64,000 nucleotides of DNA from a virus. Taxonomy: Duplodnaviria; Heunggongvirae; Uroviricota; Caudoviricetes. The position numbers are program-made. Of the stretch, positions 57,001 through 60,000 are shown piece after piece. The stretch is taken from the IMG/VR virus record IMGVR_UViG_2718218172_000010, one strand, 5' to 3'. Position 1 is the first letter of the stretch, and each line of letters opens with the position of its first letter.

Positions 57001-60000
57001 AACAGAAAGGTTTTACAGCAGCATTAAACTGATTTAGTTAACGTAAAGATTTACTAAACTGGATGTGTATAGCAATGCTTAACGAAAACACTTGTAGAAG
57101 TGTTTATGAAAATACGTGTATGTCTGGTAAAACACTTAGTAGAAAATACGTGTATAACACTTACTGAAATGCTTAGTAAAAATACTTAGTAAAATACGTG
57201 TATATAGTATCATACCGACATTCTCAACATCTTCAGACTTCCATACATACTGGGTGTTAATTTTTCACTTTTACAGCCAGCATGGAGTTTTCTGTCCTAA
57301 AAACAGAGCAGATTTACTCTGGAGTTATTTTCCTGTTCACGTATTCAGTACAGCAGAAATCCCGTGATAACGAGACAGTAAACCATCGTAATCAGCGTCT
57401 GTAACTCCATCGCTTTACCCCAGAAAAGTTAAGCCATATAATGTGAGGGATATAAGTCGTCGTATCCGGTAAGTACAGATAACCACAACATAAGCTCATT
57501 CAGTAAATTTTATCTCTGAACAAACGACTATGGCATGCTCATTTATACTATTCATAAGAAAGTGTGATTATCTGTAAGCATTAACCATCAAATCATATAA
57601 CCATACTAAACTGGCGGATCATCAGCACCATTAGCAGGTAACTTATTGAAATTTTATTATGTGTTTTTTGTTGATAATTAATATGCAATATGAATTTGCT
57701 ATTTTAGAATCATGAACACCATTTAAAATTACCATCATTAATATCATATAAAAATATATTTTTACTAAAACATGAATTGTATATATTTATTAGCTCAGGA
57801 AAATTATCAGGGTTCACCTTCAAATTAACCTGAATGTTATGCTTAATTTCACCCAGTAGTTCTTCATGTGTGGATTTTATTATCCCATTATTATAATCGA
57901 TAAATGCACACATGTTTTTTATGAATTCAAAACCTTTTCCTGTATACAGTTTAATGAATGCCACCAGAGCAAACATTTCAAGATGTAGCCATAATGCTAC
58001 GTTAGTTTTTTGCAAAGTATAAAAAATTGAATTCGCCACTTTTTTACTTATTGCTCTTTTATACTGTGATCGAGCAAGATTCAGTAGCGGAAGCTCTCGT
58101 TCAATAAATGAATGTGAAAAGACTGGATAAATTGATGTCGGAAACCTTTCAGGCCTTATGATATTTTCTATTTCCACCATAAATCTATCCATAGAAAGAA
58201 AGTCACTTTCTTTTTTTATTCTGGTATAGAGACCGCCTTTATTCCTTTCTGAGGTTTGTTTTCGTGCTATCCCCCCTAACAATTTCTCTAATTGTTTATT
58301 TATCTTCGTATAATTAAATACAACCATTCTTCTTATCATCCTCGGAAGGATAATAATATCAGTGCTTGAATCACTTGAACGGCAATTATTATTTATCCAT
58401 GCAACTTCAAGTTGCAGTATCGGAACATTAACTTTTCTGGGGTGAATATCACTCTGATATCGTTTTTTGTATGCGTTTTCATTAAGATATTCTCTGCTGT
58501 AGAGAAACTTATAGCAATATAATCTGATAATATCTTTTATGTAAAATTTAAATAGTTCACCTGTAACAGATATATGTTTTCTGCTCAGTAACTCCTGTGT
58601 ATTAAGCCATTCCCGTGACCGAAGCACACCCTTGTGAAAACTTTTTCTTACTTGCTTTGAGGCACGGCATTGATGTAATATTTTTGCGTCCTCAATAATT
58701 CTCTTTCCCGTTTTATTTTTTGCAGCATCTCTTACTCCATAAAATATCTCCCGGCCCAGACTTTTGTCATATTTACTGATTATACGACAAATATTCCTGA
58801 CCCGACGATTCTCTTTATTTCGCTTCCATAGCTTATAATGATCATCGCATAACCTTAAGGCATTTGCCTCATCAAATTCTGAAACAGGATTACTGCATTT
58901 TTTATTCCGACAAATACCTTTGTTTTTAGCCATACTCTTCTTCCCGTCAATGGAAAAATTTTCACACCCATATTACCTGAATGATAAACCGGATTAGTGT
59001 GATCCGGTTCAGTGAAATCAACAGGATAACGGTATGTCATTCAGCCATTCTTCCCTCTCCGCACAAGTGAAATCATATCTGACGTTTCTTCCTGAAGAAA
59101 TTCGCCAGAAAATCCTTGAACATCTCCACGGTGTTATTCATTACGAACCCGTGATTGGCATGATGGGTAAAAGCGGCACCGGCAAAAGCAGTCTGTGTAA
59201 TGCCATTTTTCAGTCCCGTATCTGTGCCACGCATCCCCTGAACGGCTGCACCCGCCAGGCTCATCGTCTTACCCTGCAGCTCGGTGAACGCAGAATGACG
59301 CTGGTCGATCTGCCCGGCATTGGTGAAACACCGCAGCATGATCAGGAATACCGAGCGCTTTATCGTCAGTTACTGCCGGAACTGGATCTGATTATCTGGA
59401 TCCTGCGGAGTGATGAACGTGCGTATGCTGCCGATATTGCCATGCATCAGTTTTTACTGAATGAGGGCGCAGATCCCTCGCGCTTTCTGTTTGTTCTCAG
59501 CCATGCCGATCGCATGTTTCCTGCTGAAGAATGGAATGCCACAGAAAAATGCCCGTCCCGTCACCAGGAACTCTCACTGGCGACAGTAACAGCCCGGGTG
59601 GCCACCCTGTTCCCTTCATCATTTCCGGTACTCCCTGTAGCCGCACCTGCAGGCTGGAACCTTCCAGCGCTGGTGTCACTGATGATCCACGCGCTGCCAC
59701 CACAGGCAACCAGCGCAGTTTATTCACATATCAGGGGGGAAAACCGCTCTGAACAGGCCCGGAAACACGCACAACAGACTTTTGGTGATGCCATCGGGAA
59801 AAGTTTTGACGACGCCGTTGCCCGGTTCAGTTTTCCGGCCTGGATGTTACAGCTTCTGCGTAAAGCCCGGGACCGCATTATCCACCTGCTGATCACACTG
59901 TGGGAGCGTCTGTTCTGACACACTCACGCCGACAGGATGTGTCGCTGGATTAACGAGCATTCTTCTTTTTATGAAATCATGCTTAAAAATCAGATAATTA

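What the first reader, a model, noticed from the sequence alone, without database searches (positions are those of the whole stretch)
57710..58933. Unrecognised 407-aa AT-rich zinc-ribbon protein in the cargo slot of a CP4-57-like island: candidate novel defence/effector gene
In the CP4-57 island of K-12, as I remember it, the slot just upstream of the yfjP GTPase carries the rnlAB toxin-antitoxin pair. Here that slot holds a single long ORF in extremely AT-rich DNA with an N-terminal C-x4-C...C-x2-H motif, a strongly basic composition, and no domain I can recognise. It is divergent from the YfjP-like GTPase, close to a WYL-domain regulator (WYL regulators often control defence systems), and flanked by a 1.16-kb ORF-free region with direct repeats. 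Variable cargo plus foreign composition plus a single-gene layout is the profile of an abortive-infection or other defence effector.
Basis: inference. Interest (0 to 1): 0.7.

Follow-up and report, generated by a model that had tools for sequence, protein, structure and literature searches.

The report
Dead-nuclease backbone gene of island
The unannotated 407-aa gene is real, but it is not random cargo: it is one of several very divergent versions of a single, undescribed zinc-finger protein family derived from an HNH nuclease, found only at a fixed place in CP4-57-like genomic islands of enteric bacteria, where it most likely binds island DNA rather than acting as a phage-defence effector.

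Summary
There is a 407-aa ORF on the minus strand at 57710-58933. It has 33% GC, pI 9.8 and a C-x4-C...C-x2-H motif, and it is divergent from a YfjP-like GTPase. It matches nothing in Pfam, NCBIfam, PHROGs, PADLOC or the PDB.

The "variable defence cargo" reading is only partly supported. In E. coli the slot is variable, but three sampled alternative occupants are distant homologues of the same family (hhalign 95-99.9%). They are exchanged as a cassette between a shared promoter region and a shared terminator.

The family is tiny: 43 representatives among 1.84 billion proteins. It is absent from phages and essentially absent from plasmids. It keeps a fixed position in CP4-57-like islands across Enterobacterales.

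A sister clade keeps an intact HNH motif. That clade sits where K-12 has yfjJ (a Gp2-like initiator) and never co-occurs with Gp2 (0/15 loci). The window's clade has replaced all three key HNH positions and always co-occurs with Gp2 (12/12 loci).

My best reading is a non-catalytic DNA-binding factor of the island's AlpA/Gp2 excision-replication module. Defence is not excluded (about 0.15). The family is new and occurs in roughly a third of E. coli genomes.

The parts
57710..58933 (-). 407-aa ORF: member of an undescribed family (zinc knuckle + degenerate HNH-like core + C-terminal helical domain)
   Evidence: ORF listing. Homologues and alignments. dN/dS 0.26-0.29. AF2 model with pLDDT 82.8 and pTM 0.71. 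No hit in four family libraries or the PDB.
58838..58912 (-). N-terminal CCCH zinc knuckle (C8, C13, C29, H32), followed by a long basic helix
   Evidence: C8 and C29 are invariant, and C13 and H32 at least 90% conserved, in 26 members. pLDDT is 84-94 for residues 1-40. Zinc binding itself is inferred.
58280..58417 (-). Degenerate HNH-like beta-beta-alpha core (residues 173-218). W179, D192 and R201 replace the His/Asn/Asn of the intact clade.
   Evidence: AF2 secondary structure: strand 175-179, strand 193-197, helix 198-218. Clade motif table. Clade A vs clade B hhalign probability 99.8% with these columns aligned. Clade-B cores hit only HNH models and HNH structures.
57719..58105 (-). C-terminal helical domain (residues 277-405) with family-wide conserved residues P282, L286, R293, E319, Y385-N386-x-x-F389
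   Evidence: Invariant and near-invariant columns in A2. pLDDT 83-97. No structural neighbour.
57345..58958 (.). Exchangeable cassette: the segment that differs between islands whose flanks are 75-97% identical (5' leader, ORF and ~365 nt of 3' flank)
   Evidence: blastn border mapping against L015-L019. Breakpoint at query position 526 in about 900 genomes. Alignment of the junction.
58959..59033 (.). Shared 75-nt region between cassette and GTPase start codon, with the perfect palindrome AACCGGAT-N7-ATCCGGTT at 58987-59009
   Evidence: Nearly identical in six islands, including four that carry other alleles of the family. Unique in the window. A role as operator or 5'-UTR hairpin is inferred.
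57304..57321 (.). Conserved bidirectional terminator-like hairpin at the left edge of the cassette
   Evidence: Terminator scan found it on both strands. Conserved in all six aligned islands.
56678..57345 (.). Conserved non-coding block with a variable-copy (G/T)AAAATACGTGTAT repeat array. It belongs to the island backbone, not to the cassette.
   Evidence: 75-84% identity in islands with other alleles. Alignment A4 shows the repeats do not co-vary with the allele. Repeats found. No Rfam family.
59034..59918 (+). YfjP-like GTPase, first gene of the divergent rightward backbone operon
   Evidence: Pfam MMR_HSR1 E=2.3e-14. Annotated 'GTPase family protein'. Weak partial LeoBC similarity only.
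60121..60801 (+). HTH-WYL regulator downstream of the GTPase
   Evidence: Pfam WYL 3.5e-6 and HTH_11 6.7e-5. PADLOC WYL 1.6e-19.
54615..55346 (-). Gp2/YfjJ-like protein (putative rolling-circle initiator). Co-occurs with every degenerate-HNH family member examined.
   Evidence: Pfam YagK_YfjJ_C 1.8e-36 and REP_ORF2-G2P 4.4e-9. Co-occurrence 12/12 versus 0/15.
52684..54288 (-). YfjI (DUF3987) protein of the same module
   Evidence: Pfam DUF3987 5e-74.
49464..49688 (-). AlpA-family gene of this island. It is adjacent to the family member in other genera but 8 kb away here.
   Evidence: tblastn with seven AlpA proteins, E 1e-21 to 1e-30. Annotated HTH regulator in strain cq9.

Best explanation
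The ORF encodes a member of a previously undescribed protein family that is restricted to Enterobacterales genomic islands. The architecture is an N-terminal CCCH zinc knuckle with a basic helix, a central beta-beta-alpha core descended from an HNH nuclease, and a conserved C-terminal helical domain.

The family is a positionally fixed backbone component of CP4-57-like integrative islands. It belongs to the AlpA / YfjI / Gp2(YfjJ) module, which presumably carries out excision and replication or transfer initiation.

In sister islands, a clade with an intact H...N...N motif sits directly after alpA or yfjI, in the place of yfjJ. It is never accompanied by a Gp2-like gene. I infer that it supplies the DNA-nicking or processing step there.

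In the window's clade all three key HNH positions are replaced (H to W179, N to D192, N to R201), and a Gp2-like gene is always present. I therefore infer that this protein no longer cuts DNA. It would act as a DNA-binding accessory or control factor on island DNA, for example at the shared divergent promoter and palindrome or at the conserved repeat-bearing non-coding block.

In E. coli its coding body is exchanged between islands as a cassette, by recombination in a shared promoter region and a shared terminator. This gives hyper-divergent alleles (about 23% identity) next to 94-97% identical neighbours.

Shown: existence, purifying selection, family membership, HNH-like ancestry of the core, synteny, the allele cassette and the Gp2 complementarity. 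Inferred: zinc binding, loss of catalysis, DNA binding and the role in the island life cycle.
For: - A real gene under purifying selection: dN/dS 0.26-0.29.
- A narrow family: 43 hits among 1.84e9 representatives. No hit in phages. None in plasmids for the window protein, and one partial hit for a clade-B query.
- Fixed synteny in four diverged lineages: GTPase, then a ~97-bp gap, then the divergent ORF, AlpA and Gp2.
- The ORF co-diverges with the GTPase across genera.
- Alternative E. coli slot occupants are homologues: hhalign probability 99.9%, 96% and 95%. Together the three allele types account for about 2300 of about 2500 GTPase places (rough estimate).
- Cassette borders lie at a shared promoter region and a shared terminator.
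- HNH ancestry: isolated clade-B cores hit only HNH_4, HNH_5 and HNH. The best is E=2e-4 at 21.7 bits against a cut-off of 22.0. All nine PDB hits are HNH nucleases aligned on the catalytic motif. AF2 predicts a beta-beta-alpha unit at the aligned place. Clade A versus clade B gives hhalign probability 99.8% and E=1e-29.
- Clade-B genes lie in alpA-(yfjI)-X operons of islands whose IntA is 85-93% identical to K-12 IntA.
- Gp2/YfjJ is present in 12/12 loci with a degenerate-HNH member and in 0/15 loci with an HNH-intact member. The family is not homologous to Gp2 or YfjI.
- The protein is strongly basic.
Against: - No experiment or characterised homologue exists, so the function is inferred from position and motif decay.
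- HNH similarity is below Pfam gathering thresholds. No structural neighbour was found for the model. AFDB could not be searched.
- The window clade keeps many invariant polar residues (SREW, SREY, E176, D192, R201-R202, E278, R293, E319). A non-canonical active site therefore cannot be excluded.
- Some alleles (L015/L016) lack the zinc finger altogether.
- The Gp2 complementarity rests on perhaps 3-4 versus about 6 independent lineages, not on 27 independent observations.
- Hyper-divergent alleles in conserved flanks are a signature of genetic conflict, which a plain housekeeping role for the island does not explain.
- In K-12 the same inter-module region holds true defence genes.
Confidence: 0.45

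Rival explanations
1. Single-gene anti-phage defence or abortive-infection effector. A hyper-variable, AT-rich, nuclease-derived protein carried in an island hotspot senses infection and kills or arrests the cell, or attacks phage DNA.
For: - Deep allelic diversity in nearly identical flanks is typical of arms-race genes.
- The region between yfjJ and yfjP in K-12 holds AbpAB and RnlAB.
- The ancestry is nuclease-like.
- A WYL regulator is nearby.
- Other defence genes ride on the same islands.
Against: - No PADLOC match for any allele.
- The sampled slot occupants are one family rather than unrelated systems.
- The family is confined to one position of one island type. It is absent from phages and essentially absent from plasmids.
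- It co-diverges with backbone genes across genera.
- Clade B is embedded in the alpA operon and replaces yfjJ.
- The HNH catalytic residues are lost in this clade.
Confidence: 0.15
2. Hyper-variable master regulator or sensor of the island, analogous to SaPI Stl. The conserved zinc finger binds the shared divergent promoter or palindrome and controls the GTPase...CbtA operon and/or alpA. The divergent body senses a helper phage, conjugative element or host signal, and allele diversity reflects different inducers.
For: - The ORF is divergently transcribed from the long backbone operon, across a 100-nt region that contains a conserved palindrome.
- The N-terminal zinc module is the most conserved part, while the rest is hyper-divergent.
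- Alleles are swapped while the promoter side stays constant.
- The nuclease core is dead, consistent with a binding-only role.
- The ORF lies next to AlpA in other genera.
Against: - The L015/L016 alleles lack the zinc finger.
- Clade B is co-directional inside the operon rather than divergent.
- There is no HTH or other known repressor fold.
- The island already encodes WYL/HTH and AlpA regulators.
- No operator repeats were identified, and the repeats in the non-coding block do not co-vary with the allele.
Confidence: 0.2
3. Selfish, homing-endonuclease-like gene or its decayed or domesticated remnant. HNH-active members cleave islands that carry a different allele and are copied in by repair, which produces the cassette-like replacement. 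The window clade would be a post-fixation form that has lost cleavage.
For: - HNH ancestry.
- Sharp cassette borders within conserved flanks, and AT-rich composition.
- Catalytic residues have decayed in several clades.
- Salmonella proteins with two tandem zinc modules of different clades suggest inter-allele recombination.
Against: - There is no presence/absence polymorphism: a family member is nearly always there.
- Purifying selection, and many invariant polar residues across ~35%-identical orthologues, argue for a retained cellular function.
- The E. coli alleles that are being swapped are all catalytically degenerate.
Confidence: 0.08
4. Non-functional ORF or decaying pseudogene in AT-rich, H-NS-silenced foreign DNA.
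For: One frameshifted copy (L018). Very low GC. No annotation anywhere.
Against: - A full-length match to the ORF region in 971 complete genomes; the listed copies are annotated as intact CDS.
- 90% clusters with more than 1000 member sequences each, with 407-aa representatives.
- dN/dS 0.26-0.29.
- Orthologues at 35% identity with about 80 invariant columns.
- A confident AF2 fold.
Confidence: 0.02

Closest known systems
HNH / His-Me finger endonucleases (Pfam HNH_4 PF13395, HNH_5 PF14279, HNH PF01844; for example McrA 6ghc, Cas9 and Cas8f-HNH domains)
   Same: The sister clade carries LE-x-(C/S)-H-x-Y-P-x-S-x-G-G-x-N-x3-N-x-I-I-A-P-x2-I-N-(R/K). The spacing is that of the canonical H...N...N motif. 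Isolated cores hit only HNH models and HNH structures. The window protein aligns column for column and is predicted to keep the beta-beta-alpha unit.
   Different: All scores are below the curated thresholds. The window protein has W, D and R at the three key positions. The ~400-aa architecture, with an N-terminal CCCH knuckle and a large C-terminal helical domain, has no structural neighbour.
YfjJ / YagK, 'inovirus Gp2 family' proteins of CP4-57-like islands (Pfam YagK_YfjJ_C, REP_ORF2-G2P)
   Same: HNH-intact family members occupy the yfjJ position after alpA-yfjI and are mutually exclusive with Gp2-like genes. This suggests an analogous DNA-processing role in the same module.
   Different: There is no sequence relationship (hhalign probability at most 0.2%). 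The window's clade co-occurs with Gp2 instead of replacing it.
Stl-type master repressors of phage-inducible chromosomal islands (SaPIs); from general knowledge
   Same: A positionally fixed, extremely divergent gene transcribed divergently from the island's main operon.
   Different: There is no homology, no HTH, and no evidence of repression or of a helper-encoded inducer. The resemblance is one of logic only.
Defence cargo of K-12 CP4-57 at the equivalent region (AbpAB, RnlAB)
   Same: Located between the yfjJ-type gene and the yfjP-type GTPase of a related island.
   Different: These are unrelated proteins. They are interchangeable, unrelated systems found in many contexts, whereas this family is one lineage confined to this position.

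Membership tests
HNH / His-Me finger nucleases | Sequence match to a curated HNH model above its gathering score | tested here: not met
   The window protein has no HNH hit even at E<=10. The best clade-B core scores 21.7 bits against a 22.0 cut-off for HNH_4.
HNH / His-Me finger nucleases | Beta-beta-alpha-metal fold at the motif | tested here: inconclusive
HNH / His-Me finger nucleases | Catalytic His at the end of strand 1 | tested here: not met
   The position is W179 in the window protein and W/F/Y/K in its clade. It is His in all 13 clade-B sequences.
HNH / His-Me finger nucleases | Asn/His metal ligand in the helix and structural Asn before strand 2 | tested here: not met
   R201 and D192 replace the two invariant Asn of clade B.
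Known anti-phage defence systems (PADLOC-DB v2.0.0) | Match of the protein, or of a neighbouring partner set, to a defence-system model | tested here: not met
   Zero families for the window protein at E<=10. Zero for three other alleles and two clade-B members. The GTPase gives only a partial LeoBC match at 1e-7.
Known anti-phage defence systems | Protection against phage infection | not testable with these tools
   Needs plaque assays.
Variable cargo of an island hotspot | Slot occupied by unrelated genes in otherwise collinear islands | tested here: not met
   The slot is variable. However, the three sampled alternative occupants (two allele types) are homologues of the same family.
Backbone of CP4-57-like integrative islands | Conserved position relative to AlpA, YfjI/YfjJ, GTPase, DUF932, antirestriction, RadC and CbeA/CbtA across genera | tested here: met
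   The integrase end is not on this contig.
Gp2 / YfjJ family | Homology to YagK_YfjJ_C / REP_ORF2-G2P | tested here: not met
   hhalign probability 0.1-0.2%. No Pfam hit.
Stl-like island master repressor (works-like comparison only) | Represses the divergent island operon and is relieved by a helper protein | not testable with these tools
   Only the divergent layout and the hyper-divergence are observed.
Free-standing homing endonuclease | Active nuclease site and presence/absence polymorphism between conserved genes | tested here: not met
   Catalytic residues are lost in all E. coli alleles examined. The slot is almost always filled.

The most novel reading that the evidence does not exclude
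The hyper-divergent alleles are specificity modules of a new kind of single-protein sensor built on a dead HNH scaffold. Each allele would recognise a different phage, helper or competing element. It would then either switch on the island (excision, replication or the CbtA-containing operon) or abort infection. That would be a satellite-induction switch or defence mechanism with no described counterpart.
Probability: 0.15. Interest if true: 0.8.

Novelty: new variant of a known kind. Interest (0 to 1): 0.5.

Why it matters
**Prevalence.** The three allele types examined here occur in 971, 463 and about 742 of 5,426 complete E. coli genomes. Every copy is labelled 'hypothetical protein', and no curated family, structure or paper covers them.

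**What recognising one family gives.** It is a single, island-restricted, HNH-derived family with a fixed place in the AlpA/YfjI/Gp2 module. That provides a first handle on how the very common CP4-57/CP4-6/CP4-44-type islands process their DNA. These islands also carry CbtA toxins, antirestriction genes and defence cargo.

**A concrete, testable hypothesis.** The clean mutual exclusion between HNH-intact members and Gp2/YfjJ suggests that an unrelated nuclease displaced the Gp2-like one. This bears on two unknown proteins at once.

**Evolution.** Exchange of about 23%-identical alleles as a cassette between 94-97% identical flanks is a striking case of balancing or diversifying evolution inside a mobile-element backbone.

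**A caution.** 'Variable, AT-rich and unannotated' in an island is not by itself evidence of a defence gene.

Tried and rejected
- **Sequence against PDB.** Full-length profiles gave no hit.
- **HNH in full-length proteins.** Only some full-length clade-B proteins gave even weak HNH hits in Pfam. Isolated cores were needed for a consistent signal.
- **AlpA pseudogene in the 1.16-kb gap.** Rejected. AlpA of this island is at 49464-49688, and the gap has no similarity to the ORF-AlpA spacers of other genera.
- **RNA gene in the gap or antisense to the ORF.** No Rfam family.
- **The 19-nt inverted repeat linking the ORF (58428-58446) to its 3' flank (57414-57432).** It is not conserved and shows no compensatory changes. 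Such a repeat arises in 4% of shuffles.
- **Repeats in the non-coding block as allele-specific binding sites.** Rejected, because they do not co-vary with the allele.
- **Obligate pair with the GTPase.** Rejected. K-12 GTPases lack the family. Providencia and Kosakonia members have no YfjP-like GTPase adjacent. E. coli alleles swap independently of the GTPase.
- **The 'Reverse transcriptase' label on one UniRef entry.** It is isolated and unsupported.
- **Literature.** Searches by gene names and protein accessions found nothing on this family.
- **The search for related loci with the 13-sequence alignment.** It failed for lack of a conserved stretch. A 4-sequence alignment worked.
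Full report
**1. The observation**

Its GC content is 0.33, against 0.53 for the neighbouring GTPase gene.

The protein is basic, with pI 9.8 overall and 10.1 for the first 100 residues. It begins with C8-x4-C13...C29-x2-H32.

It is divergent from an MMR_HSR1-type, YfjP-like GTPase (59034-59918) across 100 nt. An HTH-WYL regulator follows at 60121-60801.

Downstream of the ORF, 1163 nt have no ORF longer than 42 aa and hold three copies of GAAAATACGTGTAT.

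The window itself is a scaffold. The contig carrying the ORF runs from 44223 to 61222, between two 100-N joins. Over 44223-60869 it is 100% identical to E. coli strain cq9, where the island lies next to the yghD/gsp operon.

**2. It is a real gene of an unrecognised family**

Pfam, NCBIfam, PHROGs and PADLOC give no credible hit. PDB sequences give none.

The DNA occurs at full length in 971 of 5,426 complete E. coli genomes. In the records listed it is annotated 'hypothetical protein'.

Between E. coli copies dN/dS is 0.26-0.29, compared with 0.16-0.20 for the GTPase. One frameshifted copy was seen.

Homologues at about 35% identity exist in Citrobacter, Klebsiella and Salmonella, with about 80 invariant columns.

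An exhaustive profile search of 1.84 billion representative proteins found only 43 relatives. The family is absent from 50,697 phage genomes. In 72,556 plasmids the window protein has no hit, and a clade-B query gave one partial hit.

All database names are 'hypothetical'. A lone UniRef label, 'Reverse transcriptase', is unsupported. Literature searches found nothing on the family.

**3. Is it variable cargo?**

The slot is also variable in E. coli islands closely related to this one. In total, 1,874 genomes have a GTPase gene similar enough for a megablast match (80-100%, mostly above 90% nucleotide identity). Of these, 971 carry this ORF next to it. In about 900 others homology breaks at window position 58959, which is 26 nt upstream of the ORF's ATG.

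However, the genes found there instead, in three sampled islands, are distant homologues of the same family:

| Alternative occupant | Length | hhalign probability | E-value |
|---|---|---|---|
| L017 type | 376 aa | 99.9% | 2e-32 (full length, including the CCCH motif) |
| L015 type | 310 aa | 96% | 4e-9 |
| L016 type | 316 aa | 95% | 2e-8 |

These allele types occur in 463 and about 742 genomes respectively. Together with the window allele they roughly account for the about 2,500 GTPase places. This is an approximate sum.

Border mapping gives the following layout:
- Gp2 is shared (54512-55523).
- A first variable segment (55523-56678) holds the 176-aa ORF.
- A conserved non-coding block lies at 56678-57345 (75-84% identity).
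- The variable cassette lies at 57345-58958.
- Everything from 58959 rightwards is shared.

The left edge of the cassette abuts a conserved bidirectional terminator-like hairpin at 57304-57321. The right edge abuts a 75-nt shared region with a perfect palindrome at 58987-59009.

What is exchanged is therefore the body of one transcription unit, and it is always replaced by another version of the same family. Protein identity between alleles is about 23%, while the adjacent GTPases are 94-97% identical.

**4. Fixed position across genera**

In Citrobacter (L002), Klebsiella michiganensis (L003) and two metagenomic islands (L005, L006), the ~35%-identical orthologue is always divergent from the GTPase across about 97 bp. 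It is always followed by AlpA and a Gp2/YfjJ gene.

The recognisable defence genes of those islands lie elsewhere. They include TIR, McrBC, type I R-M, HEPN and an HNH/ScoMcrA-like gene. On the window's own contig the recognisable defence gene is a dGTPase at 44630-45862 (PADLOC 2e-109).

Within this clade the ORF co-diverges with the GTPase. ORF/GTPase identities for paired islands are 81/76, 49/70, 37/68 and 34/51%. That is the behaviour of a linked backbone gene that evolves about twice as fast as its neighbour.

**5. What the protein is made of**

A 26-sequence alignment that includes the distant members raised the AF2 model to pLDDT 82.8 and pTM 0.71. The model has four parts:
- a zinc knuckle with a long basic helix (residues 1-55);
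- a low-confidence basic linker;
- a core (residues 100-220) containing strand 175-179, strand 193-197 and helix 198-218;
- a confident C-terminal helical domain (residues 277-405).

The distant clade (13 representatives, plus 13 loci in Enterobacter, Citrobacter, Kosakonia, Trabulsiella, Providencia and Moellerella) has, at the beta-beta-alpha unit, the motif LE-x-(C/S)-H-x-Y-P-x-S-x-G-G-x-N-x3-N-x-I-I-A-P-x2-I-N-(R/K).

Isolated core segments of five members hit only HNH_4, HNH_5 and HNH in Pfam. The best is E=2e-4 at 21.7 bits, against a 22.0 cut-off, covering HNH_4 positions 17-53 of 54.

A core-only profile retrieves nine PDB sequences, all of them HNH nucleases (McrA, Cas8f-HNH, Cas9 and others). 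All are aligned on the catalytic motif, though each hit is individually weak (best E=0.12).

The two clades are clearly homologous over 365 columns (hhalign 99.8%, E=1e-29). In that alignment the window protein has W179, D192 and R201 where the intact clade has His, Asn and Asn. The other E. coli alleles are degenerate too.

I conclude that the core descends from an HNH domain and that the canonical active site is lost in the window's clade. A non-canonical site cannot be excluded, given the many invariant polar residues.

**6. Context of the HNH-intact clade**

In islands whose integrase is 85-93% identical to K-12 IntA, all genes are co-directional. Two layouts occur:
- intA, yfjH (opposite strand), alpA, FAMILY, DUF3944 ... 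DUF932, antirestriction, radC, cbeA, cbtA. This is seen in Kosakonia, Providencia and Moellerella. In Providencia the gene overlaps alpA by 8 nt.
- alpA, yfjI, FAMILY ... DUF932 and so on. This is seen in Enterobacter, Citrobacter and Trabulsiella.

This is the place that yfjJ, or yfjI-yfjJ, holds in K-12.

A profile search of six-frame translations gives a clean complementary pattern:
- Gp2/YfjJ is present in 12 of 12 loci with a degenerate-HNH member.
- Gp2/YfjJ is present in 0 of 15 loci with an HNH-intact member.
- K-12 CP4-57 has YfjJ and no family member.

The family is not a divergent Gp2 or YfjI (hhalign probability at most 0.2%). These 27 loci are not independent: perhaps 3-4 and about 6 lineages are involved.

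**7. Most likely mechanism**

The established points are these. The family is a positionally fixed backbone gene of CP4-57-like islands. It is linked to the AlpA/YfjI/Gp2 module, it is derived from an HNH nuclease, and in E. coli it is exchanged as a cassette.

From there I infer two things:
- HNH-intact members supply a DNA-nicking or processing step that Gp2-like proteins supply in other islands. This would be a non-orthologous displacement.
- The window's clade has lost the catalytic residues and always has Gp2 nearby. It has therefore kept only a DNA-binding role, through the zinc knuckle and basic region, as an accessory or control factor of island excision, replication or transcription.

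I put this at 0.45.

It does not by itself explain the extreme allelic divergence. A homing-endonuclease-like selfish history stands at 0.08 and a non-functional ORF at 0.02.

**8. Comparison with what is known, and novelty**

The closest family is HNH/His-Me finger, but membership fails on every feature tested for the window protein: score threshold, catalytic His and metal-binding Asn. It is best described as an HNH-derived pseudo-nuclease in a new architecture.

It works in the place of, or beside, Gp2/YfjJ without being related to it. It is not a member of any described defence system.

I rate it a new variant of a known kind: an undescribed family with an HNH-derived core, of moderate interest. 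It is very common in E. coli and wholly unannotated, and it now comes with a concrete, testable hypothesis. There is no evidence that it is the novel defence effector originally proposed.

Noticed in passing
window 56678-57345: A conserved non-coding block (75-84% identity) is present in all related E. coli islands whatever ORF allele they carry. It holds a variable-copy array of (G/T)AAAATACGTGTAT (copies at 57108, 57142, 57190). There is no Rfam family. It is a candidate origin or oriT for the adjacent Gp2-like protein.
   Followed up: partly
window 58987-59009: The perfect palindrome AACCGGAT-N7-ATCCGGTT ends 24 nt upstream of the GTPase start codon. It is identical in five of six aligned islands, including those with other alleles, and has one change in L018. 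It could be an operator or a 5'-UTR hairpin.
   Followed up: partly
window 44630-45862 (+): A dGTPase-type anti-phage defence gene (PADLOC dGTPase, E=2e-109) lies on the same island contig, beyond the AlpA module. This is where the recognisable defence cargo of this island sits.
   Followed up: partly
window 44123-44222 and 61223-61322: Two 100-N runs show that the window is a scaffold of three contigs. The right-hand piece (61323-64000, GC about 0.58) encodes an SSB (61922-62500) and is not contiguous with the island in strain cq9, where an IS66 follows instead.
   Followed up: partly
window 56016-56546 (+), within variable segment 55523-56678: A 176-aa ORF has no Pfam or PADLOC hit. It lies in a second variable segment of the island and is absent from islands L015-L018. 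It is convergent with the main ORF.
   Followed up: partly
L015 7231-8040 (+) / 8037-8969 (-); L016 7235-8023 (+) / 8020-8970 (-): The 310-316-aa alleles lack the zinc knuckle. They are accompanied by a convergent 262-269-aa gene of unknown family that overlaps their 3' end by 4 bp. This may be a two-gene variant of the cassette.
   Followed up: partly
P0018 / P0056 (Salmonella enterica, 465-468 aa): These members carry two tandem N-terminal CCCH modules. The first resembles the L017-type clade and the second the window's clade, which suggests recombination between alleles.
   Followed up: no
window 49763-50500, 50582-51163, 54618-55382 (all minus strand): Three Gp2/YfjJ-like reading frames lie on one contig (E=2e-8, 8e-55 and 1e-75 against a Gp2 profile). 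The module has been duplicated or is a composite of two islands.
   Followed up: no
window 56400-59150: Terminator-like hairpins are enriched (6 found against 1.2 +/- 1.2 expected). Two lie on the plus strand inside the ORF (57982-58003, 58438-58456). A promoter-like site at 57414-57442 (+) would drive antisense transcription into the ORF's 3' end.
   Followed up: no
L018 5276-6498 (E. coli F1022): An 88-90% identical copy of the ORF carries a 1-nt frameshift and is annotated as a pseudogene. Its island also lacks the WYL gene. This shows that occasional decay does occur.
   Followed up: partly
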